Part shown: positions 16,494 through 44,339 of the stretch, piece by piece
Layout of the letters: each line of letters starts with the position of its first letter
Numbering within the stretch: the first letter of the stretch is position 1
IMG/VR virus record: IMGVR_UViG_3300027863_001490
Direction: 5' to 3' (one strand)
DNA: 47,476 bases
From: a virus
Notes under the pieces: generated by a model
What the model saw: the letters and a program-made list of their open reading frames with translations, nothing else
Told to the model about the DNA's origin: nothing
Databases searched by the model: none
Translations under genes and position numbers: made by a program

Positions 16494-19400
16494 ATGATTT
16501 CCCATTCAAACAAATTCCATTTTAACCACAACGCAGTAAGTCGGGTTCTTGTGGCATTAACAATTTTCTCTCTTCTTGTTTCAACATTTTTTTTAGTTAA
16601 CCTCCCTTTAGCTAAAGCTGAAAGTACCTTTGGTTATTCGACTGTTGGTGGTACAGGTGGATACATAAATGGTAACTACATAGAAGGCGCACGTTACGCA
16701 TGTAGCGAATCGGGAACTTTGTCTGCTTTAACTTTAAGTTTTTACTCTAAAGTCAGCGCATCCGTGAATGTAAAAATGGCGTTATATGATGCGTCTGGTA
16801 ATTTTGTCATAGCATCCGAAGCCCATACAAGCGTAACGGCTAATGAATGGAATAATTTTTCTTGCACCGTTTCATCAGAAACATTAAGCGCCCAAAATTA
16901 CTATATTTGTTTACTGTCTTCAGGTGACATAAACAATGGCATAGCTTACGATGACTTAGGCGCTAGTTCAACTGTGTTGATTAGTAACTCTTATGCTTCT
17001 GGTTTTCCATCAACTATATCGACATCACAGTGGAATACGTTTTCGCTTTCTATGATGGCTACATATACGTTGGGCGGCAGTGGCGGCGGGGGTACTCCTG
17101 TGTTGCCGCATGCTGGTTATGATTATACGTTAGCTACTAACGCGACAAGCAACTATGTTATAGCGTCTAATGGAACCATAATTTTTAGTAGTGGAACCCC
17201 TGCGACTGCTTTTGCTAATTTAACTTACGTTGGAAACGGACATACATTGTATGTGGAGAATGGAACCTATGTCAGTGGTTCCTCTTTTGTTTGGCAGAAT
17301 GGTTTGAATACAAACTTGACTTTTAGTCCTTATGCAAACTTTACAATTCAAGCCGCCGTCGATGATGCCGTTCTTAAAATGCAGAGTTGCCAGAACTGCA
17401 CGCTTTCTTATGCTACTATAGATGGGTATTCTTCTGGGCAATCGACAGGTGACGGAGTAAACTTGGCAAATTGTGATGATTGCAGAATAATAAATTCTAC
17501 AATAACTGACATTCGCCGTTTTGGTTGGGTCTGCGATGACACAGATGGTGTTGGTGTTCATGGAAATAACGGTATAATTAATTCAACGGTGACTTTTTGC
17601 GGCTGGAATAATGTACAGTTAGGCGGCACAGACTACTCCATCGGCAACTATGCAATTAACAATACAGTTGCTTATGGTAGTGATGTCGGTATTTCGACAT
17701 GGGGTTGCCGAAATGGAATAGTTGCTTATAATTACGTTCACCACATGAATGGTACAACAGGCGGTGGCGGTAGCTCACAGTACGGTATTGCTGTAGAGGG
17801 CTATAGCGGAAATTCGGACTGCGCTCAAATTATAGGCAACACTATAGATAATACGGTTAACGGAATCATTTTGGGTGTTGGCAGTGATGTTTACTCTAAC
17901 TTAGTGAAGGACAACGTTATATCAAACTCTCAAATTGGCATTCAAACTTACAAATCCCATTTCGACGCAATCTATAACAACACAATAACTACATGGGGCA
18001 CCAGCTACAAGTCAGCCATAGATTTAGATACTTCAACAAATGAAGCTGTTACCTTCAACCATGCAACTTTAGTCTCTGGTAACGGGTATGCTTTTAATCA
18101 GAAAAATTGTTTCAACATAACAATTTCTCATAACAATATTACTGTGCCAACTACGGGAGAAATGGTTGGTATCCTTATGCAGCAGAACACTAACACGACT
18201 TTCTGCATCGACAATACGATAGTAGCAACCACCGGCATCCAAATATTATCAACATGCTATAACAACAAGGTTGACAAAAACAATTTATCTGGTTCAGGTA
18301 CAGCGATAAGCGACAGCGGAGTTAGCAGTCTCCTTAATCCATCAAGCTCATCAACTAACAGGTTAATCGTGACCGATAATTATGCTAATGCCTCGTTTAC
18401 GCAGTCTTATAGTAATAACACCCAAAAAGTCTTAACGAGTAGCGGTATAATTAACGTTGATGGCACAAACGTCACTTCTCCATATACTATAACTATGAAC
18501 GCCGATCATGCCGTTTATGTCGTAGGTGGTAGTTTGTCAATAAATAATAACAACTACACGTTAACCGCATCAATTACCTCTCCAACAAATACAACTCAAT
18601 ACACAAACGTCGTCTCTTACAGTGTTTCAACTTCTGGCAACGATACAAACCCCACTTTCCAGATTAACCTCTACAAGGCGGGAGTAGAAGTCGGCTATAA
18701 CAAGACCGCTTCAACAGGTGTCTTTACTGGTTTAGCGGCTGGCAGCTACATGTTCGCCGTTTACACTCACGGCGATAACGGTGCTTCTGACTATAAAACG
18801 GAATACCTCACCGTTAGCACCTACTCGGTCACTGTCACTAACGGTGGTCACGGCTCCACTAATCCTTCGGGTGTGTATTCGAATTTTAACGGGGAATCTT
18901 TTTCTGCGTTGGCAACAGCAAGCAGTGGCTACACCTTCCTAAACTGGGTCATTTCGGGAGTCGGAAACTCAACAGTTAACCCTCTTCCATTAACCATGAA
19001 TAGTACCTTAAACGGCAAAACCGTCACAGCATACTTTTCGCAGAACAGCTATACCTTGTCGGCTTCAATTGTGTTGCCAGTAGCCGCAGTATATACAAGC
19101 GGCACCGTAGCTTACCAAGTGACTGTTTCCGGAAACGACACTAACCCAGCTTACCAAATCAACGTTTACAGTAACAGTTTAGCGGTGGGCAGCAACTTAA
19201 CTTCTTCTTCAGGAAGCTTCTATGGCTTATCAAACGGTAATTACATGTTTGCTGTTCATGTTCAAGGTGACTTCGGTAGTGTTGACTATCAAACGTTGAA
19301 TTTCTCTGTTTCAACTTCATCGGGCGGCGGTGGTGGCGGTGGTAGCACTCCTACTCCTACACCGGCACCCACAACTTATCCAACGGTTTCGCCGACCCAG

Positions 19401-19883
19401 AATCCGCAGGGCACAAACGAGTTCCATCTTGACGACTTAGACTTGGGCACCGTAAAGCCTAACTCGACATTAACGGGAACATTGCACTTCACATTTTCAG
19501 GCAGCAGCTACACATTAATTTCTATATCTGTGTCTGAGCCTTTGCGTTCATGGATGCCTAATCCTTCTGTTACGCCGTATCAGCTTTACACGTTGAATAA
19601 TGGCGCTTCTGGCTCTGGCAGCTACGTTTTGACTTTTCTGGTTCCCGCCGACGCTGACTTGCAAACCTATAGTAGCGAAGTCACAGTTACAGCTCTTGAC
19701 GGCTTCGGAGTTACCCATACAAGCACTGCGGCTGTTACCGCTAAAGTTTCTGTTACAGAAGAAAACACAAACCCGATTTCGGAAGCAATAAATTATTTGC
19801 TGGCTAATCCCTTCGCGATTGTGATTTTGATTGTTGTGCTCTGTGTTGCTGTTGCGCTTTTGATGAAGACTAAACGGAAATAA
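16494..19883 (+). CDS. Large surface adhesin: signal peptide, right-handed beta-helix, Ig/InlB-B-like repeats, C-terminal TM
   Basis: Repeated NNT(I/V)..GI beta-helix rungs; SGYTFLNW B-repeat motif; many NxS/T sequons; TM plus KTKRK tail. Confidence 0.85.
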   Translation: MISHSNKFHFNHNAVSRVLVALTIFSLLVSTFFLVNLPLAKAESTFGYSTVGGTGGYINGNYIEGARYACSESGTLSALTLSFYSKVSASVNVKMALYDASGNFVIASEAHTSVTANEWNNFSCTVSSETLSAQNYYICLLSSGDINNGIAYDDLGASSTVLISNSYASGFPSTISTSQWNTFSLSMMATYTLGGSGGGGTPVLPHAGYDYTLATNATSNYVIASNGTIIFSSGTPATAFANLTYVGNGHTLYVENGTYVSGSSFVWQNGLNTNLTFSPYANFTIQAAVDDAVLKMQSCQNCTLSYATIDGYSSGQSTGDGVNLANCDDCRIINSTITDIRRFGWVCDDTDGVGVHGNNGIINSTVTFCGWNNVQLGGTDYSIGNYAINNTVAYGSDVGISTWGCRNGIVAYNYVHHMNGTTGGGGSSQYGIAVEGYSGNSDCAQIIGNTIDNTVNGIILGVGSDVYSNLVKDNVISNSQIGIQTYKSHFDAIYNNTITTWGTSYKSAIDLDTSTNEAVTFNHATLVSGNGYAFNQKNCFNITISHNNITVPTTGEMVGILMQQNTNTTFCIDNTIVATTGIQILSTCYNNKVDKNNLSGSGTAISDSGVSSLLNPSSSSTNRLIVTDNYANASFTQSYSNNTQKVLTSSGIINVDGTNVTSPYTITMNADHAVYVVGGSLSINNNNYTLTASITSPTNTTQYTNVVSYSVSTSGNDTNPTFQINLYKAGVEVGYNKTASTGVFTGLAAGSYMFAVYTHGDNGASDYKTEYLTVSTYSVTVTNGGHGSTNPSGVYSNFNGESFSALATASSGYTFLNWVISGVGNSTVNPLPLTMNSTLNGKTVTAYFSQNSYTLSASIVLPVAAVYTSGTVAYQVTVSGNDTNPAYQINVYSNSLAVGSNLTSSSGSFYGLSNGNYMFAVHVQGDFGSVDYQTLNFSVSTSSGGGGGGGSTPTPTPAPTTYPTVSPTQNPQGTNEFHLDDLDLGTVKPNSTLTGTLHFTFSGSSYTLISISVSEPLRSWMPNPSVTPYQLYTLNNGASGSGSYVLTFLVPADADLQTYSSEVTVTALDGFGVTHTSTAAVTAKVSVTEENTNPISEAINYLLANPFAIVILIVVLCVAVALLMKTKRK

Positions 19884-19948
19884 CCCCATTTTTCTTTTAT
19901 TGATTTTTCTTTTAAGGATAAAATTGAATCTCGGAGGAAAAAACAGAA

Positions 19949-21232
19949 TTGAAAAGTTTTATTCGTAACCAAAAAGCAATGTCAAAACAAGCAGCCGCTG
20001 TTTTATCGATAATAATCATTGTCGTCAGCATCTTTGGGCTCGGATACGCTTGGAATCAAGGCTGGATTGGTGCCCCTTCATCTAACAACGTAAACACTAA
20101 CCCCTCAACAGGCACCGGCGGCCAGCCAAGCACAGGATCAGGCACAGTCGAATCAGGACCACTATATGCAAGCGTCGTAGACAAAGTAACCCGGCAAGCA
20201 TTCACCACGTCAACAGTGCAAATTAACCAGATCGCCTCAGACGCATCAGGCGTATTTGACTTCTTAAACGGAGCCCAAATGAAGTCTCTTGCACAAGCCG
20301 CAAACCCACAGTCTGAAACCCAAATCTACACTCAAGGGCAACAAGTCATAATCGTCGTTACATGCACAGGCAACCCGTCAAACGGACTCGACTATTACCC
20401 AGTTTGGTACTACTGCACTTTGAATGAAGGCGCCACAGTTTACCAGTTAGACAACGCCGCATGCTGGACCCAAGTAAGCGCGTCCCCATACAAATACACG
20501 ATTAACTTAGCCGCTGCAACCGCAACAGATCAAAGAGTACATTACACCGCAGTTTCACTTACTAACTACTGGAACATCGGCGACTTAGCAATTTACCCAA
20601 GACTCGCAGCCGCAAACACAGACATTTCAGTAGCATATGGAGCAACCACGTTGGCTTCAGTAACAGACGCTTCAACATGGGTTGACACAGCCGCAGAAAT
20701 CACCGCAAACTGCACCTTAGCAAGCGCAAGCAACGAAAAATTCGTCTTCAGCATGACCGCTGGAGCAGCAAACCTCGGCTGGGGTAAACACTTCTTCGCA
20801 TTCGACAGCGACGGCAAAATCCACGAATACGGCGGCGTACTGGTAGTTGCAACCACAGACACCACAATGACTCAGCCTAACGAATGGAGCTACTTCGGCT
20901 TGAAAACCTTAACCAACGAAAACGCATACTACAAAATCTTACAACCCGACTTCCCCAACAACGGCCAAACCAAATCGTGGTCCGTTGACATCCCAATGAA
21001 CGTCGCAGCGGATTCAACAAAATACCTGATGAAGATTTGGCTACTTGACTGCCAAAACCTAGACACAATCGGCACACAAGGCACAACAACCAGTGTTCCA
21101 CAGGGCTACGGATTCATGGATTCAACCACAGACTACGGCGTCGGCGCTGTTGTCCACGCAGTTGGCTTAACAATTTCAAGCGGCGCCTCTGCAACACCAC
21201 AACTAGAGTTCTACTTCACCGCTCCAAGCTAA
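19949..21232 (+). CDS. Probable major structural/surface protein with class III (pilin-like) signal peptide
   Basis: RNQKA-MSKQAAAVLSIIIIVV fits the [KR][GA]-x-[ST] plus hydrophobic rule; frequent AAC/TAC/TTC/ATC/GCA codons. Confidence 0.75.
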   Translation: MKSFIRNQKAMSKQAAAVLSIIIIVVSIFGLGYAWNQGWIGAPSSNNVNTNPSTGTGGQPSTGSGTVESGPLYASVVDKVTRQAFTTSTVQINQIASDASGVFDFLNGAQMKSLAQAANPQSETQIYTQGQQVIIVVTCTGNPSNGLDYYPVWYYCTLNEGATVYQLDNAACWTQVSASPYKYTINLAAATATDQRVHYTAVSLTNYWNIGDLAIYPRLAAANTDISVAYGATTLASVTDASTWVDTAAEITANCTLASASNEKFVFSMTAGAANLGWGKHFFAFDSDGKIHEYGGVLVVATTDTTMTQPNEWSYFGLKTLTNENAYYKILQPDFPNNGQTKSWSVDIPMNVAADSTKYLMKIWLLDCQNLDTIGTQGTTTSVPQGYGFMDSTTDYGVGAVVHAVGLTISSGASATPQLEFYFTAPS

Positions 21233-21304: not shown

Positions 21305-22918
21305 TTGAAATCCACTAACAAAATTGTGCTTATCGGTTTTTTCGTCGGTTTTCTTCTCTTCGGTTTAGGCGCTTCTGGCATAGCTGGAACTTTAGCTTTA
21401 GCCATAAACAATGTGGTGCCTGAATCTTTATCAGTTGTTTCCTTAGACGGCACAAGCGTAACTATTTATCAGGGTCAAGCACGATCCATAACCGTAATTG
21501 AATACGGCGATGTTCCCTTTCTTTTCACTTGGTATCTAGACGGCGTTTACCAGAGACAAGGCCTTAACACTTATACGGCTTCTGACTCTTTTGATTTACC
21601 CACAACTTTAGGCGTCGGCGACCACTCTTTAATAGCTGTTGAAACTCCCGATCCGTTCTCTTCTCCGACAAGTTACGTTGAAATAATAATTCATGTCTTA
21701 TCTAATCCTACTCCTACACCGCCCACTCAGTATTCTTTAACGATTTCAACTATTGGTTCTGGCTCAACAAACCCGTCCTCTGGGGCCTCTTATAGTTACG
21801 CAGTTAATTCTTGGGCAACTTTAACCGCTACTCCAAGTTCAGGATACGTTTTCAGTTATTGGAGCGTCACTTACCCCAGCCAAGCTTACAGCCCAACACT
21901 CACATATACCGTTAATCCCCTTCCTCTCCAAATGTACCAGAACTACGCGGTTGTAGCAGTATTCACCTATTCGCCTTCATCTACACCGACTCCGACGCCT
22001 GTGCCAACCGCTTCGCCTTCACCTACACCGACTCCGACGCCTGTGCCAACCGCTTCGCCTTCACCCACTCCGTCTCCCACGCCAACTCCATCGCCTTCCC
22101 CGTCTCCGACACCAAGCCCGACCCCCATCCCGACCTACACGTTAATAACAGATTACTCAGGGTCAGGAACTATAAGCCCCTCGAAAGGCACCTATACTTA
22201 CACGCAAGGGACATCAGTGCCATTATCAGCAAGTGCCAGCACAGGCTACACCTTCAGTTATTGGCTACTAAACGACGGCACAAAAGTCTATAGTGCGTCA
22301 ACAACTTTGACGATGACAAGCAGCAAATCAGCCCTAGCCGTATTCGCAGCCATAACTCCGACGCCCACACCTATCCCCCAAGTCACCTTGATATTAAGCA
22401 GTTCTGGCTCTGGCTCCATTAATCCAACCGCAGGCACCTACACTTACAATCAAGGAACATCCGTGCCTATTTCCGCTACCGCTTCTACAGGATACTATTT
22501 TGACTATTGGCTCTTCAACGACTACACAAAAAGCTACAGTTCATCAACAACAGTAACAATGTCAAGCAGCAAAACCGCCATCGCCGTGTTCACAGCTTAT
22601 CCAACAGCTACACCTACTCCTAACCCAAGCGCCACTGTCAACCCAAACCCAACTCCATCGCCTTCTCCAACGCCCCAGATTACTCCTATTCCAACAACGT
22701 CTCCCACGAATACGCCATCTCCCACTTCTACAGAGCCAACCCCGATTCCAGTAGCCACGCCTACGCCGACTCCCGCTGCGGTTAGCCAAGAATCTTCAGA
22801 AAACACTTACATTCAAGGCAACGAACTTTCAATGGTCGGAGGCTTAAGCATAATAGCGTTGTCGGCTATCGCTGGACTACAAACTAACGGTTTATTAGGC
22901 AAACCCAAACATCGCTAA
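21305..22918 (+). CDS. Surface protein with divergent InlB B-repeats, Pro/Thr linkers, C-terminal anchor
   Basis: Three GSG..P..G..Y...V...A....GY.F.YW repeats; PT-rich stalks; hydrophobic tail ending KPKHR. Confidence 0.85.
21981..22064 (+). repeat. In-frame 42-bp tandem duplication in Pro/Thr linker
   Basis: Two exact copies encoding [14 protein letters not shown]. Confidence 0.85.
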
Positions 22919-22947: not shown

Positions 22948-23448
22948 TTGAATAAAAGGTTAAAGCTAAACAGAAGAGAAATTACCTTAGCCTGTTTAAT
23001 TGCCACGTTAAGCTTGGTATTGACGCTTAGACCTGTGCTCCTTTTTCTAAATCAACTCAACCCATTCGTCGGGATGCTCTTTTACTACGTTATACTTTTT
23101 AGCTGTTTAACCGTTCTCGGTCACTTCGGCTTAGTTATCTTCAACATAAAGATTAATAAGCCCCTTCAAACACTTGGGTTGCTACTCATAACATTCAGTT
23201 TCTTTATTGCCGTAGGTTTAAGTTCTGCCTATGTTCAATATGTCGCTACTGGTTCATTTACGGGCGCCAGCAATATTTACTATCAATGCGAAGACGGATC
23301 AGTTTTTTGGCTTTGGAGCCAACTTATCCCGTTAACTACTGACTTCAACATAACTTTAGCATGGGTCATGTCTTATGGAGTAACACCATTTATGCTCACT
23401 TTAATCGGTGGCTATTTAACATTCGAAAAACCACGCCTTAGCCTTTAA
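22948..23448 (+). CDS. Multi-pass membrane protein
   Basis: About four TM segments. Confidence 0.75.
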   Translation: MNKRLKLNRREITLACLIATLSLVLTLRPVLLFLNQLNPFVGMLFYYVILFSCLTVLGHFGLVIFNIKINKPLQTLGLLLITFSFFIAVGLSSAYVQYVATGSFTGASNIYYQCEDGSVFWLWSQLIPLTTDFNITLAWVMSYGVTPFMLTLIGGYLTFEKPRLSL

Positions 23449-23478: not shown

Positions 23479-24492
23479 TTGGTAGGCATACAAGGAAAAA
23501 ATCTCACATGGCTGTTTTTGATTTTCTTTGTATCGCCCTGTGTTCTGCTCTTCATGCTGGCGGGGTCCAGAAGCCTCTCAGATTACATAACAACCACATT
23601 CTACGTGATAACCCTCGCTTTTTCCTTGATAATCTTGAAGGAAATCAACACTGACGAACAATACTATGAACCATTAACTTTAGAACCCTTAATCGCCTCG
23701 GTTCTTTTAGGCGTCGGCATGTTTGCTTTAAGCGCCGCTTTGAGTTTAAGCCTAAAAAACTCTGACATGCTCCTATCCATTGTTCCCTTGACTTTAACAG
23801 CGTCACCAACCAGCATCGCAACAACTTTTCTAAGTGCGTCCCTTTTCGGTTTAGCCTTAATCGCTAGTGGCGAAGAGCTCTGGAAGCTGCCGATGTTCGC
23901 TGAAGGACGTGCCCGATGGGGAAAAGGATACAATATTCCCCGAGTTGTCTTCGCGATCTGCATGTGCTTACTCGGCTTGTTAGTGGCAATGCTGCTTTTG
24001 AATGCTTTAAATGTGCTTTCATACTTCAACTTCGGCATAGTCGCCGTCGTTTTAATCGTGGTTTTCGCTTTAGTCTTCAGCTTAATTGTCAAGCGCCCAA
24101 AATTCACTGTTCCCGGCATCCTCATTTACGTCGGCGTCCCAGTCGGATTCTGGGCGGCGTTACATGGGATTGAAGCGTACAGTAACCCCGTCATGATTTT
24201 GCCAGCCGCCGTCAACGGAGTCGTATTAATTGTTTACCTCTGGAAATACCGTTGTATCCTAGGCTGCATTTTCGCCCACTTCATCTACAACACTCTCATA
24301 ACGGCGTTGTCTTACTTCAACGGGACAGCAAACGTGCAAGCTGGGCTTCCCCTGTTCCCCGACTTCTTTTCCCGATCATATTACAGTAACAGCGGCTTCA
24401 TCTACGATTACGCCGTCATCGCAATCTGGTTCTTCGGGGTTTTCCTGTTCCTGTTGCCGTCTTTGACGAAACAGAAGGCCAACAAAAAATGA
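23479..24492 (+). CDS. CPBP-family (Abi/PrsW-like) intramembrane glutamic protease
   Basis: GEELWK (EExxK), FWAALH, AHFIYN (HxxxN) in a polytopic protein. Confidence 0.8.
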   Translation: MVGIQGKNLTWLFLIFFVSPCVLLFMLAGSRSLSDYITTTFYVITLAFSLIILKEINTDEQYYEPLTLEPLIASVLLGVGMFALSAALSLSLKNSDMLLSIVPLTLTASPTSIATTFLSASLFGLALIASGEELWKLPMFAEGRARWGKGYNIPRVVFAICMCLLGLLVAMLLLNALNVLSYFNFGIVAVVLIVVFALVFSLIVKRPKFTVPGILIYVGVPVGFWAALHGIEAYSNPVMILPAAVNGVVLIVYLWKYRCILGCIFAHFIYNTLITALSYFNGTANVQAGLPLFPDFFSRSYYSNSGFIYDYAVIAIWFFGVFLFLLPSLTKQKANKK

Positions 24493-24938
24493 AGCATACA
24501 ATAATCGTCTGTGTCTTGTTTTGCGAGTTAATAGGCTTCGCCTCAAGTTTAACAGGAGATTTTTCTTGGTATAACAGTTTGGTGAAGCCAAGCTTTGCCC
24601 CGCCTAACTATGTTTTTCTTCCAATCTGGCTTACTCTCTACGCTTTAATGGGGTGGTCCCTTGCCAGATTCATCAACTCAAAGAAGCAACATAAAATGGT
24701 TGGCTACAGCTTTTTTGGCATTCAACTATTCTTGAACGCTCTTTGGAGCAACCTCTTTTTCGGTTTACGCTCAACCTTTTTTGGTTTAGCAGATATTTCA
24801 GCGCTTTTAGCGTTTATTGTTTTAACTATCTGGAAATTCTGGATGGTTGACAAAAAAGCTGCCTTGCTATTGGTTCCCTATATGTTATGGGTTTGTGTTG
24901 CTTTATTGCTGAATTTTTATGTTTGGCGACTGAACTGA
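24489..24938 (+). CDS. tspO: TspO/MBR tryptophan-rich sensory protein
   Basis: WYNSLVKPSFAPPNYVFLPIWLTLY, QLFLNALWS-LFFG, LLVPYMLWV; five TM. Confidence 0.95.
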   Translation: MKHTIIVCVLFCELIGFASSLTGDFSWYNSLVKPSFAPPNYVFLPIWLTLYALMGWSLARFINSKKQHKMVGYSFFGIQLFLNALWSNLFFGLRSTFFGLADISALLAFIVLTIWKFWMVDKKAALLLVPYMLWVCVALLLNFYVWRLN

Positions 24939-30008: not shown

Positions 30009-30072
30009 TACGGGGTAAAGGGTGCAGAGCCATATCGCTCTACAAAAGAAAAATGGGAGATGTGGCTTAGGC

Positions 30073-33840: not shown

Positions 33841-34125
33841 ACTCTGAGTCAGGTATTAATTGCAAAAAACATCCAAAAACAGTTATCAGACATCGATACT
33901 GCTGCGAAAGAAATGAAAAGATGCAAAGGCATACTTCGAGGGTTCATTCTTTCAAAAGATTTTCTTGACAACTACAACCGTTTCGACCTTCTTCTTAGCG
34001 TCTGGGTTGATAGTTTAATGACTCTTGTTGAAGCTACAGGACGGATTTTTCCGGGAGAAGGCAGCTTAAACGGCAATTTTCCGTTCAGCGAATCAGAGTT
34101 TAAATCGAAGCTTGAGGGCTTTGAT

Positions 34126-36992: not shown

Positions 36993-37100
36993 ATGGAGAA
37001 AAAATTCCGAATACCGCACCGAAAAATAGACAGGGAAAAACCGATAGTGGACCAGCTAGAAGCTGTAGCTGTTGCACTAGAAATCGGCGTTAACCTCTGA
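36993..37100 (+). CDS. 35-aa hypothetical peptide (not in ORF track)
   Basis: AGGTGA RBS-like site upstream. Confidence 0.4.
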   Translation: MEKKFRIPHRKIDREKPIVDQLEAVAVALEIGVNL

Positions 37101-37734
37101 TTCTGCTTTGCCTCTCGAACCTGTCATTCTCCACTGACCCTTCTAAACCTGAATTGTAGGTGCCGTGAAAAATTGCGTCATAGCACCCCATCGATTGGTG
37201 CCTTTCTTGGCTTGTCCCGTAGATGCCGACTGGTAACGGGTCATAATTTGGGGTTTTCACGGTTAACAAATTCCTGAAAAGGGCTTTGGGGTCGAGTAGC
37301 TGCTTGATTTGCCCGGGTGAGACGACGGGTTTGAGGCTCCAAGGTTTTTTCATAATAAAGTCGTAATCGAATTTGTATTTTTGGAAGGCTTCTGGCGTTA
37401 AAAATGTGGCTGCTTTGATTTTTGTTGTTTCGGTTTTTGGGTTGTAGAGGATTTTGGCTTTGACTTCGGGGATTCTGTTTGTGTGTATGTGGGATTCGTG
37501 GTAGTTGATCATTGCTCTTATGTAGCGTCCAGCTAAGTGTCGGTCTAGGCTGATTTCGGTTAATAGTTGCTGGTTGTGGTCGAGGTAGATTTGTTTGGCT
37601 GCTTCTCCGAAGATGTCTATGAGGTGTTGGGCTGAGGTTGGCCATTCGTGGAGCCGCATTATTGGGGTGTTTCGGATTTTGTGGGTGCGTTTGCCTAATC
37701 GGATGATTTTTGCGTAGAGGGTAAATTCTGGCAT
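37090..37734 (-). CDS. Hypothetical protein
   Basis: 214-aa ORF, GATTTTTCT motif upstream. Confidence 0.65.
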   Translation of the reverse strand: MPEFTLYAKIIRLGKRTHKIRNTPIMRLHEWPTSAQHLIDIFGEAAKQIYLDHNQQLLTEISLDRHLAGRYIRAMINYHESHIHTNRIPEVKAKILYNPKTETTKIKAATFLTPEAFQKYKFDYDFIMKKPWSLKPVVSPGQIKQLLDPKALFRNLLTVKTPNYDPLPVGIYGTSQERHQSMGCYDAIFHGTYNSGLEGSVENDRFERQSRIRG

Positions 37735-37944: not shown

Positions 37945-38457
37945 TTGCAACGCAAAAACGTCTTTGCCATAGTTTTGCTTGTATTGGGTGCTGTGTTGCT
38001 GTTTTTCAGTGTGCACAGCGCTTTCTATGTTGGCGCCCCTTGGTTCAATGAGCGAGCGAATGAGGCTTGGCATATGAACAATTATTTTGTTGTGCCGGGT
38101 CTTGTGGCTTTCATCGGTTTCGCTTTTGTTCCTTGGCTTTTCGGCGGCGTCTTTATGGGTGCTTTTGTTGTGGCTGTTTTTTGTTTAAAGGGCAAAAAGC
38201 GGAAGTGGCTAATCGTTTTGGGGTTGGCGATGGCGGGGTTGATTGCTTTAGGCTTTAACACGTTCGATTTTATGTTGGGATGTTTCTATTGGACCAACAT
38301 GGCCGAGCCGGCGCCGGTGCTTGTGGATTTGGTGTTTTGTGCTTTCTATGTGAATGCGTGGGATTTCTACTTTTTTGGTTTTTTGATGCCGCTTCTTGCG
38401 GGGGGATTCTGTTTTGGGGCTTCGGCGGCTTTGGCGTTTTCTAAGGTGAAGATTTAG
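37945..38457 (+). CDS. Multi-pass membrane protein
   Basis: 4-5 TM segments. Confidence 0.75.
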   Translation: MQRKNVFAIVLLVLGAVLLFFSVHSAFYVGAPWFNERANEAWHMNNYFVVPGLVAFIGFAFVPWLFGGVFMGAFVVAVFCLKGKKRKWLIVLGLAMAGLIALGFNTFDFMLGCFYWTNMAEPAPVLVDLVFCAFYVNAWDFYFFGFLMPLLAGGFCFGASAALAFSKVKI

Positions 38458-38751: not shown

Positions 38752-40668
38752 TTGAAGCATGGAAAATTATACGGGTTCGGCGCTGTTTTTCTCATCGTTT
38801 TAACTCTTGCTGGATTATACATTTACGATCCAGCAATTTTCAGTAATTCACAGCAAAACACAACTTTGAGTATCAGCCAAATCAACGTTGACCCCCAAGG
38901 TTCACCAGTCGGTAACGAATGGAAAGGAAGCTTCTGGAATCTCTTAGTGTACGTGAACGCTAACGACGATATAGCTGGCGTAATTTTGCCTAAAGGTCAA
39001 ACTGGCTCCATCACTTACCAAGGCGCTGTCGAAGCCTTAAAAACAGGTGCTAAAGTCGAAATAAAAATTGATCCACAGCAACCCTATTTGATCCGTGATC
39101 TTCAAGAAAAATATGCTATGCCCGCCCCCGGCGCTGTCGGAGTTGCCACATCAACCACACAGCTTGATCTACGTTACTATGGTTGGGGTGAGGCAACTTG
39201 GCGAATTTACACGCCTTTTACCGTGTCAATCTATAAAGACGGCGTTTTAGTTGGCCAGACAACTTTGAATGATCAGGGACAGAGCTCGGTTCAATCAGTC
39301 AGTACCTCCGAAGGTGCTGTTAGAATCGAAAACCTTGGGCTTCTAGGCGGCAGCTACACGTCGCCGAATACTCCTAGCCAAATCTGCATCCTCAAAGGAT
39401 ACCCCAACGTCTACGACTTAACCCAAGTAAACAGCATCATAAGCGGCACTTATGGAAACTACTGGTTCGGCACTAGACGTGAAGGTAACAACGTCGCAGT
39501 TAACCCGACAATGGTTTACCCGGGGTTGCTAATTGGCAACGTTTACCCGCCGTCTACAATCGGCGGCTGGAAAAGCCTCAACAGCGGCGGCAGCGATGTA
39601 GGCGGCAAAGTTGACCCTGTAAAACCCGTAATTAGCAGCGGCGAAAAATCTTCTTTGCCGTCTGATAAACAAAAATATTCTTCTTTAACTGAATACATTG
39701 CTGGCTCGGGAATAGCTGACCTTGCAAATAGTCTTTTCCAGTCACGCGCCGCTGGCTTTTCAGGTGCTTTATGGCAAAAAGTCAGTCTTGTAACAGATAC
39801 TAACGGACAAACTGCTTTGAAACTTGACATTCCTTGGAGTGCCTTCGGTACACCCCTCGTGAATATTCGGGTTCCAACAGAACTCGCAGACACCTTCGTT
39901 GAGCAACCTATTGTAACAAGCACTCAAGTGTCGGCGGTTTGGCAAACATCAGGGACCGCATACGGTGACATTTCTGGGAGTTTACGTATTGCTTGCACCG
40001 TAACCAACACTGGAACAGTAACAGGTAGCACCATGCTTTCGGTTTCTTCTGGAAACAGCAAGCTTTCACTTACACCCCTAACCCAAACAGTAAATAACCT
40101 TCAACCTAACGTTCCCCAAACAGTTTACTTCGATGCAACCAACCTCGGCGTCGAAAACGAAATCTCAAATATACCCGTCACAATAATCGCCAAAGATACC
40201 TACACTGGCTCAGAAACAGGTCGCTGCACCCTCTACGGAACATTATTATCTACTTTAACGCCGGGAACAACAACTCTCAGCATAAACGTCTATGAAAAAG
40301 GAACAACGACACCCGCGCCTAATCTGCAATTATCTGTTCAATATGGCACACAAACATTAACTCCAGTAACAGACGCTAACGGTGGGACTGGCGGCTTAAC
40401 TTTGACGACTCCGCAAGGCGGCGCCTTCGTTGGTTCTGTGCTCATCACCAGCATGGAGACTTCTACCTATAAAGCTGGAACAATGACTTACCAGATTAAC
40501 CAAGCGGGTGCCTACATTGCAACTTACGAAGTAGAACGCAAAGATACCCAATACATCGATTGGGTGTTAATTGCCATTATAGTCATAATTGTGGTGGTCT
40601 TTGTCGCCATCATCGGCGGGGGCGTCTATGCGTTGCGGAAAAATAAGCATGGTGGAAAACATCGTTAG
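38752..40668 (+). CDS. Putative fusexin (Fsx1/HAP2-like class II membrane fusogen)
   Basis: N-terminal signal/anchor, beta-rich ectodomain with collinear blocks resembling archaeal Fsx1 as recalled, Ig-like domains, single C-terminal TM; the CDS is certain, the family call is unverified. Confidence 0.65.
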   Translation: MKHGKLYGFGAVFLIVLTLAGLYIYDPAIFSNSQQNTTLSISQINVDPQGSPVGNEWKGSFWNLLVYVNANDDIAGVILPKGQTGSITYQGAVEALKTGAKVEIKIDPQQPYLIRDLQEKYAMPAPGAVGVATSTTQLDLRYYGWGEATWRIYTPFTVSIYKDGVLVGQTTLNDQGQSSVQSVSTSEGAVRIENLGLLGGSYTSPNTPSQICILKGYPNVYDLTQVNSIISGTYGNYWFGTRREGNNVAVNPTMVYPGLLIGNVYPPSTIGGWKSLNSGGSDVGGKVDPVKPVISSGEKSSLPSDKQKYSSLTEYIAGSGIADLANSLFQSRAAGFSGALWQKVSLVTDTNGQTALKLDIPWSAFGTPLVNIRVPTELADTFVEQPIVTSTQVSAVWQTSGTAYGDISGSLRIACTVTNTGTVTGSTMLSVSSGNSKLSLTPLTQTVNNLQPNVPQTVYFDATNLGVENEISNIPVTIIAKDTYTGSETGRCTLYGTLLSTLTPGTTTLSINVYEKGTTTPAPNLQLSVQYGTQTLTPVTDANGGTGGLTLTTPQGGAFVGSVLITSMETSTYKAGTMTYQINQAGAYIATYEVERKDTQYIDWVLIAIIVIIVVVFVAIIGGGVYALRKNKHGGKHR

Positions 40669-40682: not shown

Positions 40683-42044
40683 ATGCGTTTTGCCCCTAAA
40701 TTTTTTCTTGTTTTAGCAACTCTTTTTCTAAGCGTCGGCGTCGTATTGACTGGTTCGCTTGGTTACGCTCAACTTAACGGTTTAAGCTTAACAGGAGACA
40801 CCTACACCGTAAACTTTGACAGCGGCAACGGGTTTTCTCCTAGCTCCATCACGATTAACCGAGGAGACTTAGTTTATGTCGATTGGCCGCTTGAATCATA
40901 CACAATTTCTTATCCTGAAACTGCTACAGTAGAAATTTCTTGGAGCCTCGACGGTCACTATTTTGGAAGCACCGAAATAAGCGACGCAATAACTTTTACG
41001 CCGAAAACTAACCAGTATGGACTCACAGTTAACGGTTTAGTCCAATTCGACATTGCAGGCAAACACACGCTTTCTCTATATGTGGTTTGGGTTGGTCAAG
41101 AGGGGACGCCGTATTACTCGGGAACTTTTAGTTGCGAAGTCACCGTTAACGCTCCCGCCGTCAAGAAATCTTTGTCTCTTGCGGTTTCAGGCGAAGGAAG
41201 CTTGTATGCGGGTCCGTCATCTACCACTTGGGAAGTCACGATTTACGCTGGCGACTCTTCTACAAAGGTCTACGAGAGGGATCAATACTCGCTTGTTTAC
41301 CTCGAAGCCAGACCAACAGTTGGCTGGCGTTTTCTGTATTGGCTAATGAATGACGGTTCGCAGCGTACAAGCCAAGACATAGGCGTTGTCCTCGACGATG
41401 ACATGAGTGCGTTAGCTGTTTTCGGTCAACAAGCAGTTTTAACGGTTTCAACTGACGGTTTAGGCTACGTGACTGTTTCGCCTCCCATTGACCCGGGCGC
41501 CAGCAACGTTGACACAGTTTCTGCGGGGCAATCCAAACTTTTCCAGCATGACTTTGGAACACAAATCACGCTTTATGCTTGGCCATTAAGCAACTGTGCC
41601 TTTGACCATTGGATTCTCCCCGATGGCTCAACAAGCACAAGTAACCCCGTTTCGTTTACTTTGTCTTCTGACAGTTCTGTTCAAGCCGTTTTCCGTTATG
41701 GGTCTTCATCAACGCCTAACCCAACGGTTTCACCTACAGATCAGCCTTACCCCACTTTGGAGCCCACCGTAGCGCCGACAGTAGCTCCCACAGTTGAACC
41801 TACCCCTATTCCAACGGTGACTCCGCAACCAACACTTTACCCCACTCCCTCTCCAACTCCTACACTGCAACCCACCACCTCAGTTAACCCATCCGCTTCC
41901 CCCTCGCCGACGCCTTCAACAATCAACTTTTTTATCCCAAAAACTTACAGGACACTCGCATGGATTAGTGGCTTCGCATCTTTGGGTTTAAGCGGCGTCT
42001 GCTTTACATTCTTCAAGTTGACTTTGCCCCGTCGCCGCAGCTAG
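40683..42044 (+). CDS. Surface protein paralog A: Ig-like domain, two InlB B-repeats, PT linker, TM
   Basis: [30 protein letters not shown] then TM. Confidence 0.85.
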
Positions 42045-42091
42045 TCTTCCTTTCTTTTTTCTTTTGATGCAAAAAATGGGAGTGTCTATTC

Positions 42092-43498
42092 TTGAAGTCT
42101 GGCGCTAAAGTTTTCGTTTCAGTCGGCGCCGTTCTCTTTCTAATCGGAGCCGTATTATGTGGTTCCTTCCTTTATGCTCAAGCTAAAGGCTTAAGTCTTT
42201 TCGGTGACACCTACACCGTAAATTTTGTCGTCACTGGAACTCAGTGGCAGCAAACTGTGGGTTACGGCGATAACTGGTTCCAATATGAAGTAGGCTCTTT
42301 TGACTCTGCAAGCATCAACATCGCCCCCGGCGACTCCGTTTATTTTAACGTTCCAATAGGCGCTTACAGAAGCGGCGACGCCCTAATGTATCAGGTTTTG
42401 TGGGCTGTCTACAGTGGCGTCTCAGAAATCGGCGGCAACGTCAAACCTGACAGTCAAATCCCCGGCGAATACACCGCTAACGAGTACGGCGAAATTGCAA
42501 ACGCCAAAATGACTTTTCCAGCGGCAGGAACATACGATGTCCACTTGGTCTGTTACTCATACGGTCTTTATAGCGGTCCAAGCGCAACCATCACCGTAAA
42601 CGTTGTTGCACCACAGGTTTACAAAACGATCACCGTTGGCATTTCTGGGCAAGGCATGGTTACTGGCGGCTTGACTTCTGCAAAAATCAGTTCACCCGCC
42701 GAAAACCGCTTCGACGTGCATTCTGGCGACCCAAATTATGTCCGTGAATATCAACAGTTTTCTCTTCTCGACTTTACCGCTGGAGCTTACTCTGGCTACA
42801 AATTCGACCATTGGCTACTAAACGATGGCAGCACAAAAACCGACAACCCAATCAGCATCATCTTAGAGAACGACATGAGCATCCAAGCAATCTTTACGAG
42901 TCAAGGAGTCTTAACTGCCATGAGCGTCGGAAACGGCTACTTCACGATTTTTCCCGGCGTAACTGATCCGCACGCCGCGCAGGATATTGTTTATGCGGGT
43001 CAAACTAAGACTTTCCAGCATGACGCTGGCACCCAAATTGAGTTAGCTGCCTTCGGAAACAGCGGTTCACAGTTTGACCATTGGGTTCTGCCTGATGGTC
43101 GAACTTCAACGAGTTACACTGAATCCTTCACTATGGGTAGCACTGGAACCGTGATTGCTTATTTCACTTCAACATCTTCTCCAACTGCTACCCCAACTCA
43201 AACGCCGTCTCCAACTGAAACGCCTTACCCAACTTTGCCGCCTGAGACGCCTTTGCCGACTGCGGAGCCAACGCCGATTCCAACAAACACGGCTCAACCA
43301 ACAGTAACGCCGACCCCCACGCCGACTGCGGCGCCGACAAGTAACCCGACGCAGCAGCCAACGCCTACCCCGACGATTCAGCCTTCGAATCCGACTTTCT
43401 GGATTCCAAAAGGATACCGCTTCTATGCGTTGCTCGCAGGCATCTTTAGCTTATTCGGTAGCGCCTTCTGTTTCGTAATCGCCAAAAAGTACGGTTAA
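42092..43498 (+). CDS. Surface protein paralog B
   Basis: [30 protein letters not shown] then TM. Confidence 0.85.
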   Translation: MKSGAKVFVSVGAVLFLIGAVLCGSFLYAQAKGLSLFGDTYTVNFVVTGTQWQQTVGYGDNWFQYEVGSFDSASINIAPGDSVYFNVPIGAYRSGDALMYQVLWAVYSGVSEIGGNVKPDSQIPGEYTANEYGEIANAKMTFPAAGTYDVHLVCYSYGLYSGPSATITVNVVAPQVYKTITVGISGQGMVTGGLTSAKISSPAENRFDVHSGDPNYVREYQQFSLLDFTAGAYSGYKFDHWLLNDGSTKTDNPISIILENDMSIQAIFTSQGVLTAMSVGNGYFTIFPGVTDPHAAQDIVYAGQTKTFQHDAGTQIELAAFGNSGSQFDHWVLPDGRTSTSYTESFTMGSTGTVIAYFTSTSSPTATPTQTPSPTETPYPTLPPETPLPTAEPTPIPTNTAQPTVTPTPTPTAAPTSNPTQQPTPTPTIQPSNPTFWIPKGYRFYALLAGIFSLFGSAFCFVIAKKYG

Positions 43499-43521: not shown

Positions 43522-43815
43522 ATGGGTTTAGGTAAAGTATTCGGCGTCGTCATGCTTGTTTACGGAGTTGCTTGCATAATTTTTGATTACGTCGGCTTCG
43601 TATTTTCGACGATCCCGAATCTTGGCGTTTTCGGCAGTTGGCTCTTTAACCCGCTTGGCATGGCTTTCAGTAACATAATCACTTCGAATCTTGTAGGCGG
43701 CAACCCAATTTTGGGGTTGGGAAGCTCAGGGATCGCTTGGGCTGTCGGCGGCGTCTTAGCGTTTTTCTGGATTTCCATAATGCTGTTTTTCGGGTCCAAA
43801 CTGGTTAGGCGTTGA
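43522..43815 (+). CDS. Small Gly-rich membrane protein
   Basis: Hydrophobic throughout. Confidence 0.75.
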   Translation: MGLGKVFGVVMLVYGVACIIFDYVGFVFSTIPNLGVFGSWLFNPLGMAFSNIITSNLVGGNPILGLGSSGIAWAVGGVLAFFWISIMLFFGSKLVRR

Positions 43816-43844
43816 CTTTCCATTTTTCTTTTAAGTGAATTATC

Positions 43845-44339
43845 ATGTGGGGCATACGCGATCTGGGCATAGCTGGGGCAACTTTGACAATTCTTACAAT
43901 AGGGATTGTTCCCATCTTGATTATTGTCGGTGTTTTGCTTGCGGTGGGAGTTGTCGGTGCCTTTTTAACTGGTTGGTTAAACACTATCATTTACTTGTTT
44001 GCCGGCATCGGAATTTCTTGGCTTGTAAACGGAGGCTTGAAGTTTTTCGGCGTTTCCAGCCCTGTACGTTTTCTGCTCATCATCCTCATTGTGTTGGTTA
44101 TGTCATTGATTGGCTGGGGCATAAACCACACAAGCTACTTTTCCATGATGCCTAATCCGACAAGCTTAATCGCTTCTCAACCTGAAATTGTTCTCTCACA
44201 GAACAGTGTGACAGGCGAAATCTTCGGTTTCACGTTGGATTTCCAGACTTTCGGTGCATTCATGTCCACGTTAGGTGCCGCCCTCGGGGTCGTTTCGGTT
44301 TGGCTTGTAACCCGGAAACCAAAGAAACATCACCGTTAA
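43845..44339 (+). CDS. Multi-pass membrane protein (matrix-like candidate)
   Basis: About four TM; RKPKKHHR tail. Confidence 0.75.
   Translation: MWGIRDLGIAGATLTILTIGIVPILIIVGVLLAVGVVGAFLTGWLNTIIYLFAGIGISWLVNGGLKFFGVSSPVRFLLIILIVLVMSLIGWGINHTSYFSMMPNPTSLIASQPEIVLSQNSVTGEIFGFTLDFQTFGAFMSTLGAALGVVSVWLVTRKPKKHHR

What the first reader, a model, noticed from the sequence alone, without database searches (positions are those of the whole stretch)
16494..44339. Capsid-less, fusion-based transmission system: enveloped virus or plasmid-vesicle-like element
Seen: about 25 kb encode membrane or secreted proteins (fusexin-like protein, class III signal protein, four adhesins, many small TM proteins, intramembrane protease), plus one FtsK/HerA-type ATPase, an integrase and a Rep-like gene. 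I recognise no terminase, portal, HK97 or jelly-roll capsid, tail or VirB4-relaxase set. Established: pleolipoviruses use spike + matrix + ATPase but have much smaller genomes and a different spike; haloarchaeal plasmid vesicles package DNA in membrane vesicles. Inference: a temperate element that either buds as fusexin-armed enveloped particles or spreads by fusing donor and recipient cells, possibly a new archaeal virus lineage with class II fusion.
Basis: partly seen in the sequence, partly recalled or inferred. Interest (0 to 1): 0.88.

Follow-up and report, generated by a model that had tools for sequence, protein, structure and literature searches.

The report
Fusexin-armed mobile element of Bathyarchaeia
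This 47-kb DNA circle is a mobile element of the sediment archaea Bathyarchaeia. It has no recognisable virus shell, but it encodes a protein predicted to fold like the sperm-egg and virus fusion protein HAP2, next to a membrane-linked DNA pump, so it probably spreads by membrane fusion.

Summary
The window is a complete circle of about 47.35 kb with an exact 127-nt end overlap.

**Confirmed parts**
- The 638-aa protein (38752-40668) was modelled at pLDDT 85.5. In three structure libraries its best full-length matches are class II fusogens only: HAP2 (Z 13), archaeal Fsx1 (Z 11.5), alphavirus E1 and bunyavirus Gc. No sequence method links it to Fsx1 or HAP2.
- The 724-aa ATPase is HerA-like (Z 24). 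VirB4 (Z 19) and the STIV2 packaging NTPase (Z 15.7) follow.
- A divergent tyrosine integrase lies outside the given coordinates, at 8597-9838.
- Related elements sit integrated in a 2.1-Mb Bathyarchaeia contig, which fixes the host.

- The 411-aa gene is TFIIB-like and the 450-aa gene is ParB-like, so neither is a capsid candidate.
- The Rep-like call and the class III signal are unsupported.
- Membrane or secreted genes cover about 17 kb, not 25 kb.
- Pfam (51 ORFs) and PHROGs (40 ORFs) found no capsid, terminase, portal, tail or relaxase.
- The fold of the conserved 427-aa surface protein stays unresolved.

**Best reading:** a temperate, vesicle-type (capsid-less) virus or plasmid-vesicle element that enters cells by class II fusion. 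Cell-cell fusion is the main rival.

The parts
1..127 (.). Terminal overlap, identical to 47350-47476. It lies in an imperfect 33-nt tandem repeat and closes the circle at about 47,349 bp.
   Evidence: 127 nt at 100% identity, while neighbouring repeat copies are only 74-90% alike
8597..9838 (+). Divergent tyrosine recombinase (integrase). The real start is probably at residue 25.
   Evidence: ESM Atlas feature score 0.98 and structure TM 0.75/0.93 to a Bathyarchaeota PF00589 cluster; conserved R...HxxR...H...Y pattern. Pfam itself missed it.
16494..19883 (+). 1129-aa exported protein with a C-terminal anchor, probably a glycoprotein or adhesin.
   Evidence: N-terminal and C-terminal hydrophobic segments; 30 N-x-S/T sequons; only faint PKD/Ig hints.
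19949..21232 (+). 427-aa conserved surface protein with an N-terminal anchor and an S/T/G/P linker. Its fold is unresolved; it is a candidate envelope or lattice protein.
   Evidence: 38 homologues, and two share their longest-contig length (61,860 and 26,164 bp) with fusexin homologues, so probably the same contigs; no PDB sequence hit and no relation to the fusexin.
21305..22918 (+). Membrane-anchored adhesin with three InlB B-repeat domains and a PT-rich linker.
   Evidence: PF18998, E 6.8e-27
22948..23448 (+). 166-aa protein with three TM segments, conserved in the integrated Bathyarchaeia relative.
   Evidence: 44% identity
23479..24492 (+). 10-TM CPBP/Rce1-like intramembrane protease candidate.
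   Evidence: PF02517, E 6e-4, below the cut-off; motifs; homologues in L007 and G001.
24489..24938 (+). TspO/MBR membrane protein.
   Evidence: PF03073, E 1.5e-40
26494..27846 (+). ParB-like partition protein.
   Evidence: phrog_4715, E 2.8e-13
30022..31257 (+). TFIIB/TFB-like factor with an N-terminal zinc ribbon. It is a core gene of the element family and is not a capsid.
   Evidence: profile hit to the P. furiosus TFIIB zinc ribbon 1PFT, E 4e-4..
31609..34623 (+). Four abutting membrane-protein genes (138, 295, 348 and 236 aa) directly upstream of the ATPase. The last three are core genes. The stop of the 236-aa gene overlaps the ATPase start.
34620..36794 (+). 724-aa HerA-like P-loop ATPase. 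Walker A is G351-x-G353-K354 and Walker B is D543-E544. A family-specific helical and zinc-ribbon N-terminal domain spans residues 1-285.
   Evidence: D. radiodurans HerA Z 24.0 over 289 residues, VirB4 Z 19, TrwB Z 16, STIV2 B204 Z 15.7
37090..37734 (-). 214-aa basic core protein of unknown function with a Pro/Tyr-rich C-terminal half.
   Evidence: present in all related loci
37945..38457 (+). 170-aa conserved protein with five TM segments.
38752..40668 (+). 638-aa fusexin-fold (class II fusogen) protein. It has an N-terminal signal or anchor, domains I-III (about 40-503), an extra Ig-like domain (507-597) and a TM segment (604-630).
40683..43498 (+). Two paralogous membrane-anchored InlB B-repeat proteins directly after the fusexin. 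They are candidate companion or receptor-binding proteins.
   Evidence: PF18998; in relatives the equivalent gene overlaps the fusexin stop codon.
43522..44339 (+). Two small multi-TM proteins (97 and 164 aa), conserved next to the fusexin block. They are candidate major membrane or matrix proteins.

Best explanation
The window is the circular, extrachromosomal form of a temperate mobile element of Bathyarchaeia. It most likely behaves as a capsid-less, vesicle-type virus, also describable as a plasmid-vesicle element.

**Proposed mechanism**
- Surface and membrane proteins are inserted into the host membrane: the fusexin, its neighbouring B-repeat adhesins, the 1129-aa glycoprotein, the 427-aa protein and the small TM proteins.
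- A HerA-like hexameric translocase is held at the membrane by the TM proteins of its own operon and loads the 47-kb DNA into buds.
- The released vesicles bind a new cell through the adhesins.
- The class II fusogen merges the two membranes and delivers the DNA.
- The tyrosine integrase can then insert the DNA into the chromosome.

**Shown:** the circular genome, the predicted fusexin fold, the predicted HerA fold, the integrase, integrated relatives in Bathyarchaeia, and the absence of known capsid or T4SS families at sequence level.

**Inferred:** budding, DNA loading by the ATPase, the companion role of the adhesins, and fusion activity.
For: **Genome form and host**
- The circle is closed by a 127-nt exact overlap.
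- Fusexin homologues lie on a 2.135-Mb contig of a 'Candidatus Bathyarchaeia archaeon' MAG and on Thermoproteota and Bathyarchaeia MAG contigs.
- That integrated copy also carries the ATPase operon plus the PD-(D/E)XK (66% identity), SNF2 (69%), integrase, CPBP and 1129-aa homologues. It lies between host oxidoreductase and EF-1alpha genes.

**Fusexin**
- The model has pLDDT 85.5.
- In Foldseek against the PDB, all of the roughly 44 rows listed are class II fusogens: AtHAP2 E 1.8e-11, CrHAP2, alphavirus E1, Fsx1 7P4L E 5.9e-9, and RVFV and CCHFV Gc.
- A search that does not use Foldseek, over 48,161 chains, ranks CrHAP2 first (Z 13.0, 333 residues, model 41-503). Only HAP2 and Fsx1 chains align about 300 or more residues.
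- All 50 listed BFVD matches with a name are viral glycoproteins or envelope or structural polyproteins; no archaeal virus protein appears, and about ten rows carry no name.

**ATPase and core genes**
- The closest fold matches are HerA at Z 24, then VirB4, TrwB and the STIV2 packaging NTPase.
- The same structures are named for ORF25 of pR1SE-type plasmid vesicles (PMC10818511).
- The ATPase, the 295/348/236-aa membrane proteins, the 214-aa protein and the fusexin recur in the same order in most of the related contigs from separate samples (the fusexin in six of the eight loci with the ATPase).

**Absence of capsid families**
- Pfam and PHROGs gave no structural hit.
- Three of the four large soluble unknowns resolve to integrase, ParB-like and TFIIB-like. 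The fourth, 28777-29931 (384 aa), stays unknown, but it recurs in only two relatives, which argues against a family-wide capsid gene.

**Precedent**
- A haloarchaeal Fsx1 element is reported to be carried by budding vesicles and passed on by membrane fusion (meeting report PMC13712861).
Against:
- Pattern scans of IMG/VR with the ATPase and the fusexin found no relative there.
- HerA-type ATPases also work in DNA repair and defence, and the operon link to the membrane is by gene order only.
- The 427-aa, 348-aa, 295-aa, 236-aa and 214-aa proteins and the small TM proteins were not folded, so a novel shell or nucleoprotein is not excluded.
- All fold evidence rests on AlphaFold models built from alignments of 22-42 sequences.
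Confidence: 0.45

Rival explanations
1. Conjugation-like spread by cell-cell fusion. The element stays inside cells. The fusexin and adhesins on the donor surface fuse donor and recipient membranes, and the HerA/VirB4-like ATPase moves the DNA across the bridge. This is what Moi et al. proposed for Fsx1 elements.
For: - The same fusexin and ATPase evidence applies.
- VirB4 is the second-best fold class for the ATPase, at Z 19.
- No relative was found in IMG/VR.
Against: - No relaxase, VirD4/TraG or VirB6-type family was detected.
- HerA fits the ATPase clearly better than VirB4 does, Z 24 against 19.
- The one experimental report on an Fsx1 element describes vesicles, not cell fusion.
- Many discrete contigs of 40-62 kb suggest a free replicon at high copy number.
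Confidence: 0.25
2. A true virion with an unrecognised protein shell or nucleoprotein. Examples are a lattice of the 427-aa protein over a membrane, small hydrophobic capsid proteins of the spindle-virus type (97 and 164 aa), or an internal-membrane icosahedral virus in which the HerA/FtsK-type ATPase packages DNA as in STIV2.
For: - The ATPase core matches the STIV2 B204 packaging NTPase at Z 15.7 and rmsd 2.6.
- The 427-aa protein is conserved, rich in Thr, Ser, Gly, Tyr and Trp, low in charged residues, and probably shares contigs with the fusexin.
- Small two- to three-helix hydrophobic proteins lie next to the fusexin block.
- Three proteins carry an RGG-rich leader and could bind DNA.
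Against: - The charge pattern and the S/T/G/P linker of the 427-aa protein argue that its body faces outward, not into the cytoplasm where such capsids assemble (inference from the positive-inside rule).
- No capsid family was hit in Pfam or PHROGs.
- A TM-anchored class II fusogen fits an outer envelope better than an internal membrane.
Confidence: 0.2
3. An integrative plasmid or genomic island whose surface proteins serve the host, for example in adhesion, cell-cell contact or envelope remodelling. On this reading the fusexin-fold protein does not act as a fusogen.
For: - Other windows of this scan held fusexin-fold proteins judged non-fusogenic (earlier finding e1-2638979; not checked here).
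- TspO, CPBP and the adhesins are common cellular genes.
Against: - The protein keeps both membrane elements, the N-terminal export segment and the C-terminal TM.
- It is conserved as a core gene alongside the ATPase operon in most relatives, on discrete circular-sized contigs.
- The element carries its own integrase, ParB-like protein, TFIIB-like factor and helicases.
Confidence: 0.1

Closest known systems
Fsx1-carrying integrated mobile elements of haloarchaea (Moi et al. 2022, PMC9259645; vesicle transmission reported in PMC13712861)
   Same: Both are archaeal integrative elements of about 50 kb or more. Both encode a TM-anchored class II (fusexin) fold protein, a tyrosine recombinase and a HerA-type ATPase, and both are proposed to spread by membrane fusion.
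   Different: - The host is Bathyarchaeia (Thermoproteota), not Halobacteria.
- The fusogen has no detectable sequence or HMM similarity to Fsx1.
- No VirB4, TraG or XerC/D family hits were found here.
- The complete free circular form is in hand.
- The element carries its own TFIIB-like factor.
pR1SE-type haloarchaeal plasmid vesicles (apHPVs; PMC10818511)
   Same: Both are about 50 kb and integrating, with no capsid or conjugation genes. Both have a core of membrane or structural proteins of unknown fold. The core ATPase of each matches VirB4, TrwB, HerA and the STIV2 NTPase by predicted structure, and in apHPVs it is proposed to recruit DNA into vesicles.
   Different: - There is no sequence similarity: tblastn of the ATPase against PLSDB found nothing.
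- The host phylum is different.
- That paper names no fusion protein for apHPVs ('fusion' does not occur in its text), whereas this element has a class II fusogen.
Pleolipoviridae (enveloped pleomorphic archaeal viruses)
   Same: The functional layout is the same: a spike or fusion protein, small membrane proteins and an NTPase, with no capsid, a temperate or chronic lifestyle and entry by membrane fusion.
   Different: - The genome is three to six times larger.
- The spike has a class II fold rather than the pleolipovirus VP4/VP5 fold.
- No shared protein families were detected by PHROGs or by tblastn against INPHARED.
Eukaryotic HAP2/GCS1 and viral class II fusion proteins (alphavirus E1, bunyavirus Gc)
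   Same: The predicted three-domain beta-rich ectodomain is followed by a C-terminal TM. These proteins are the best structural matches in every library searched.
   Different: - Sequence identity is only 9-13%.
- An extra Ig-like domain sits before the TM.
- The fusion loops and the trimer were not verified.
- The protein is encoded on an archaeal DNA element.

Membership tests
Fusexin / class II fusogen superfamily | Beta-rich ectodomain with domains I, II and III in the class II topology | tested here: met
   On a predicted model (pLDDT 85.5). All roughly 44 PDB rows listed by Foldseek are class II fusogens. In the wide VIA search CrHAP2 ranks first (Z 13.0, 333 residues, model 41-503), and Fsx1 scores Z 11.3-11.5 over 300-328 residues. 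Domain III matches P. berghei HAP2 D3 at Z 11.8 and rmsd 1.9.
Fusexin / class II fusogen superfamily | Export signal and a C-terminal transmembrane anchor after domain III | tested here: met
   Hydrophobic segments at residues 4-31 and 597-630. The model shows a helix at 604-630.
Fusexin / class II fusogen superfamily | Hydrophobic fusion loop or helix at the tip of domain II | tested here: inconclusive
   Conserved motifs ENLGLLGG (194-201) and NYWFG (236-240, with W238 and G240 invariant) lie in the domain II region. Their place in the fold could not be checked without the model coordinates.
Fusexin / class II fusogen superfamily | Trimeric post-fusion hairpin and measurable fusion activity | not testable with these tools
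   This needs an expression and cell-cell fusion assay or a structure. A trimer exceeds the size limit of the complex predictor.
Fsx1 family (7P4L; NCBIfam NF053506 / Pfam PF28161, as named in earlier finding e1-4359550) | Sequence or HMM similarity to Fsx1 | tested here: not met
   phmmer against PDB chains gave no hit at E 10. A 42-sequence profile against PDB chains gave no Fsx1 or HAP2 hit at E 10. Pfam at E 5 gave none. NCBIfam on all 42 family members listed no Fsx1 model among the 25 families shown, of 35 matched.
Fsx1 family (7P4L; NCBIfam NF053506 / Pfam PF28161, as named in earlier finding e1-4359550) | Location in an integrative mobile element with a recombinase and HerA | tested here: met
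   Integrase, HerA-like ATPase, and an integrated relative in a Bathyarchaeia chromosome.
FtsK-HerA superfamily, HerA clade | RecA-like P-loop core with Walker A and B motifs and the HerA-type fold | tested here: met
   Invariant G351-x-G353-K354 and D543-E544. D. radiodurans HerA matches at Z 24.0, rmsd 3.0 and 289 residues; S. solfataricus HerA at Z 20.6.
FtsK-HerA superfamily, HerA clade | N-terminal HAS-barrel domain and a NurA nuclease partner | tested here: inconclusive
   Residues 1-285 are modelled as helices plus a zinc ribbon and are not covered by any listed match. No NurA family was hit in Pfam.
Type IV secretion / conjugative element | VirB4, a VirD4/TraG coupling protein and a relaxase | tested here: not met
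   Only one ATPase is present, and it fits HerA better than VirB4 (Z 24 against 19). No relaxase, TraG or VirB family was found in Pfam at E 0.01 on any ORF.
Caudoviricetes (HK97-type tailed viruses) | Large terminase, portal, HK97 capsid and tail proteins | tested here: not met
   No such Pfam or PHROG family was found on 51 and 40 ORFs respectively. Three of the four soluble ORFs over 350 aa are integrase, ParB-like and TFIIB-like. The fourth (384 aa) is not conserved across the family.
Varidnaviria (jelly-roll capsid, internal membrane) | Double or single jelly-roll major capsid protein with an FtsK-HerA packaging ATPase | tested here: inconclusive
   The ATPase class fits (STIV2 B204, Z 15.7).
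pR1SE-type plasmid vesicles (apHPVs) | Homologues of the ten apHPV core genes | tested here: inconclusive
   Only the ATPase was compared. tblastn against PLSDB found no match, but its structural hit list matches the one published for ORF25. The other core genes were not compared.
Pleolipoviridae | VP4-type spike, VP3-type membrane protein and a genome of about 7-17 kb | tested here: inconclusive
   No pleolipovirus spike appears in the listed fold matches, which does not exclude one. PHROGs and tblastn against INPHARED gave no hits. At 47 kb the genome is outside the family's range.

The most novel reading that the evidence does not exclude
This would be the complete genome of an undescribed lineage of enveloped, capsid-less dsDNA viruses of Bathyarchaeia that enter cells with a class II (HAP2-like) fusogen recognisable only by structure. 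It would show that fusexin-based transmission exists in TACK-lineage archaea outside hypersaline habitats. It would also support archaeal viruses as an ancient reservoir of the fusogen later used in eukaryotic sex and by RNA viruses.
Probability: 0.4. Interest if true: 0.88.

Novelty: new variant of a known kind. Interest (0 to 1): 0.72.

Why it matters
**What was known.** Class II fusogens drive gamete fusion in eukaryotes and the entry of many RNA viruses. Their origin is debated. The only characterised prokaryotic family, Fsx1, is secure only in haloarchaea, and its assignments to other archaeal genome bins were doubted by its discoverers.

**What this adds.**
- A second family that is unrelated at sequence level but has the same predicted fold.
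- A firm host assignment to Bathyarchaeia, through integration in a 2.1-Mb contig.
- A complete free circular genome and a conserved gene core: a HerA-like ATPase with membrane partners, the fusexin and its adhesins.

**Why that is useful.**
- It gives a defined gene set for asking how a DNA element can spread without a capsid.
- It links fusexin elements with plasmid vesicles, since both have the same ATPase class.
- It points to a group of elements absent from the IMG/VR, INPHARED and PLSDB collections as searched here, so standard virus-detection pipelines may miss them.

Tried and rejected
**Hidden capsid candidates**
- The 411-aa gene proved to be TFIIB-like: it has a CPxC...CxxCG zinc ribbon and hits 1PFT at E 4e-4.
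- The 413-aa gene is a tyrosine integrase. A profile search of it against PDB sequences gave nothing.
- The 450-aa gene is ParB-like.

**ATPase class**
- A classical AAA+ reading was suggested by weak PF00004 hits in 6 of 22 members and by p97 matches at E 0.2-0.8. The fold search rejected it.

**Searches that found nothing**
- Spindle-virus, pleolipovirus or any known virus relatives: PHROGs on 40 ORFs returned only ParB-like and two unknown families. tblastn of the ATPase against INPHARED phages and PLSDB plasmids found no match.
- IMG/VR pattern scans with the ATPase and the fusexin found no relatives.
- Rep_trans for 28777-29931: no family hit at E 5.
- Homology between the 427-aa protein and the fusexin: hhalign probability 3%. 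Its profile against PDB gave no hit.
- The ESM Atlas shape search for the fusexin matched only single Ig-like domains.

**Runs without a usable result**
- The complex prediction of the ATPase with the 236-aa membrane protein returned no answer. It is not evidence either way.
No whole genome is held for the window.

**Integration site in the Bathyarchaeia genome**
- No PF00589 hit lies next to the island.
- No repeat of the nearby tRNA-Asn was found, and no flanking direct repeats of 15 nt or more that looked meaningful.

Full report
**1. What the window is**

- The 47,476-nt window ends with 127 nt that repeat its first 127 nt exactly. The overlap lies in a 33-nt tandem repeat whose neighbouring copies are only 74-90% alike, so it reflects a real circle of about 47,349 bp.
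- G+C is 41-49%, there is no tRNA gene, and almost all genes are on one strand.
- No whole genome is held for the window.

**2. Gene content**

Left third, mostly DNA metabolism (Pfam):
- an N6/N4 methylase
- a ribbon-helix-helix regulator
- an XPB/ResIII-type helicase
- an ASCH protein
- a PD-(D/E)XK nuclease
- an SNF2 helicase with an archaeal MCM winged-helix tail

Flagged region, 16494-44339:
- It is almost blank to Pfam and PHROGs.
- A hydrophobic-segment scan shows 16 genes (17.3 kb) for membrane-anchored or exported proteins.
- Three of these proteins carry InlB B-repeat domains.
- One is TspO, and one is a weak CPBP/Rce1 match with plausible catalytic motifs.
- The 1129-aa protein has 30 N-glycosylation sequons, against 0-1 in the fusexin and the adhesins.

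**3. The fusexin claim**

- The 638-aa protein has 47 relatives, all from metagenomes or genome bins and none with a Pfam domain.
- An AlphaFold model built from 42 of them reached pLDDT 85.5.
- Foldseek against the PDB listed only class II fusogens: Arabidopsis and Chlamydomonas HAP2, alphavirus E1, Fsx1 (7P4L), and Rift Valley fever and CCHF virus Gc, with E 1.8e-11 to about 1e-7.
- A second aligner gave CrHAP2 Z 13.0 over 330-333 residues spanning model residues 41-504, and Fsx1 Z 11.5 over 328 residues. Domain III matched P. berghei HAP2 D3 at Z 11.8 and rmsd 1.9.
- A search of 48,161 representative chains that does not rely on Foldseek again placed HAP2 first. Only HAP2 and Fsx1 chains aligned about 300 or more residues; every other row matched a single Ig-like domain.
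- In BFVD, every listed match with a name is a viral glycoprotein or an envelope or structural polyprotein, and no archaeal virus protein appears.
- The large rmsd values (27-30 Å) are what hinge differences between domains produce and do not weaken the topology match.
- After domain III comes an extra Ig-like domain (507-597) and one TM helix (604-630).
- No sequence method ties the family to Fsx1 or HAP2.
- I therefore file it in the fusexin superfamily by predicted fold, but not in the Fsx1 family.
- Conserved Gly- and aromatic-rich motifs (ENLGLLGG, NYWFG) are candidate fusion loops, but I could not place them in the model.

**4. The ATPase**

- The 724-aa protein has only 23 relatives, on contigs of 40-87 kb.
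- Walker A and B residues are invariant.
- Weak sequence hints pointed to classical AAA+, but the model (pLDDT 84.4) settles the question. HerA matches at Z 24.0 (289 residues, rmsd 3.0), VirB4 at 19, TrwB at 16, and the STIV2 B204 packaging NTPase and FtsK at about 15-16.
- Residues 1-285 form a family-specific helical domain with a zinc ribbon.
- The gene's start overlaps the stop of a 236-aa TM-hairpin protein. It is preceded by 348-aa, 295-aa and 138-aa membrane proteins.
- A complex prediction with the 236-aa protein gave no answer.

**5. Candidate hidden capsids**

- The 411-aa core gene has a TFIIB-type zinc ribbon. Its profile hits P. furiosus TFIIB at E 4e-4, with yeast TFIIB and Brf below.
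- The 450-aa gene is ParB-like.
- The 413-aa gene at 8597-9838 is a tyrosine integrase. Its ESM Atlas feature score is 0.98 and its structure TM is 0.75/0.93 to a Bathyarchaeota PF00589 cluster. The alignment shows the R...HxxR...H...Y pattern.
- The 384-aa 'Rep-like' gene has no family hit even at E 5 and recurs in only two relatives.
- That leaves too few soluble ORFs for a tailed-virus module.
- PHROGs on 40 ORFs returned nothing structural.
- The 427-aa protein remains open. It has 38 relatives, two of which share their longest-contig length with fusexin relatives, no PDB sequence hit, and a composition rich in Thr, Ser, Gly, Tyr and Trp.
- Its positively charged N-terminus, single hydrophobic helix and S/T/G/P-rich linker argue that its body faces outward (inference). 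That would make it an envelope or lattice protein, not a cytoplasmically assembled capsid.

**6. Relatives and host**

- Eight loci with the ATPase, from separate samples, keep a common order: TFIIB-like, 295, 348, 236, ATPase, 214 (mostly on the opposite strand), the 5-TM protein, the fusexin, a B-repeat adhesin and the small TM proteins. Not every gene is present in every locus. The fusexin was found in six of the eight.
- In relatives, the adhesin gene overlaps the fusexin stop codon. This suggests a companion protein, as E2 or Gn is for viral class II fusogens (inference).
- A scan of species-representative genomes found the fusexin on a 2,135,134-bp contig of a 'Candidatus Bathyarchaeia archaeon' MAG, and on Thermoproteota, Bathyarchaeia and one Nanoarchaeia-labelled MAG contigs.
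- Around that chromosomal copy lie homologues of the PD-(D/E)XK nuclease (66% identity), SNF2 helicase (69%), ParB-like protein, ATPase operon, TspO, integrase, methylase, adhesin, CPBP protease, the 1129-aa protein and the XPB-type helicase. They are bounded by host 2-oxoacid oxidoreductase and EF-1alpha genes.
- The family is therefore integrative, its host is Bathyarchaeia, and the window is not a collapsed chromosomal island.
- I could not find the attachment sites.

**7. Comparison with what is known**

- Moi et al. found Fsx1 in haloarchaeal integrated elements larger than 50 kb that carry XerC/D, HerA, VirB4 and TraG. They proposed conjugation-like, fusion-dependent transfer, and they doubted the non-haloarchaeal MAG assignments (PMC9259645).
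- A 2026 meeting report states that vesicles budding from an Fsx1-carrying strain carry the element and pass it on by membrane fusion, 'a dsDNA archaeal virus' (PMC13712861).
- pR1SE-type plasmid vesicles are about 50-kb integrating plasmids with no capsid or conjugation genes. Their core ATPase matches VirB4, TrwB, HerA and the STIV2 NTPase by structure (PMC10818511), the same structures as here.
- The four proposed Bathyarchaeia virus families are tailed, filamentous or spindle-shaped and do not resemble this element (PMC10541130).
- No relative was found in IMG/VR, INPHARED or PLSDB.

**8. Verdict**

- I rate it a new variant of a known kind: fusexin-bearing integrative elements and plasmid vesicles.
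- It has a new fusogen family, a new host class and a complete episomal genome.

Noticed in passing
window 19888-44358 (13 sites, e.g. 19903, 21274, 22926, 23453, 31271, 37926, 43503, 43822, 44348): The 11-mer ATTTTTCTTTT occurs 13 times, against 0.21 expected by chance. All sites lie within 19.9-44.4 kb. Eleven are on the + strand in the short gaps just before membrane or surface protein genes, often extended to TTTTTCTTTTAAG about 10-30 nt before the start codon. It could be a shared promoter read with the element's own TFIIB-like factor, an oligo-T terminator, or both. Variants also occur in the integrated Bathyarchaeia relative.
   Followed up: partly
window 2790-2881 and 44349-44440; also 44966-45409: Three otherwise unrelated soluble proteins begin with the same RGG/GYGG-rich leader. 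Two of them also share 92 nt of upstream and leader DNA at 83% identity. RGG leaders often bind nucleic acid, so these could be DNA-condensing or cargo proteins.
   Followed up: no
window 30022-31257: The element family encodes its own divergent TFIIB/TFB-like protein. It has only 30 relatives among 1.84 billion representative proteins.
   Followed up: partly
window 16494-19883 versus 38752-43498: N-glycosylation sequons are distributed very unevenly. The 1129-aa surface protein has 30, while the fusexin and the three B-repeat adhesins have 0-1 each.
   Followed up: no
L001 (NCBI GCA_975901545.1, 87-kb contig) 1-22088: A distant relative of the ATPase operon sits on a larger contig with a family B DNA polymerase, an Hjc resolvase, XPB-type helicases and a TGT (DpdA-like) gene. 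No fusexin lies within 10 kb. The family may therefore include larger, more autonomous members.
   Followed up: no
window 44436-44497: A perfect 31-nt tandem duplication lies inside the 187-aa RGG-leader gene.
   Followed up: no
window 2721-2754, 45408-45442, 14783-14808: A recurring palindrome-like element, AATGTTCCCA...TGGGAACATT, sits at or just after stop codons.
   Followed up: no
L004 17114-18292: One relative carries a Cas12f1/TnpB-like gene (PF07282) inserted between the ATPase and fusexin blocks.
   Followed up: no
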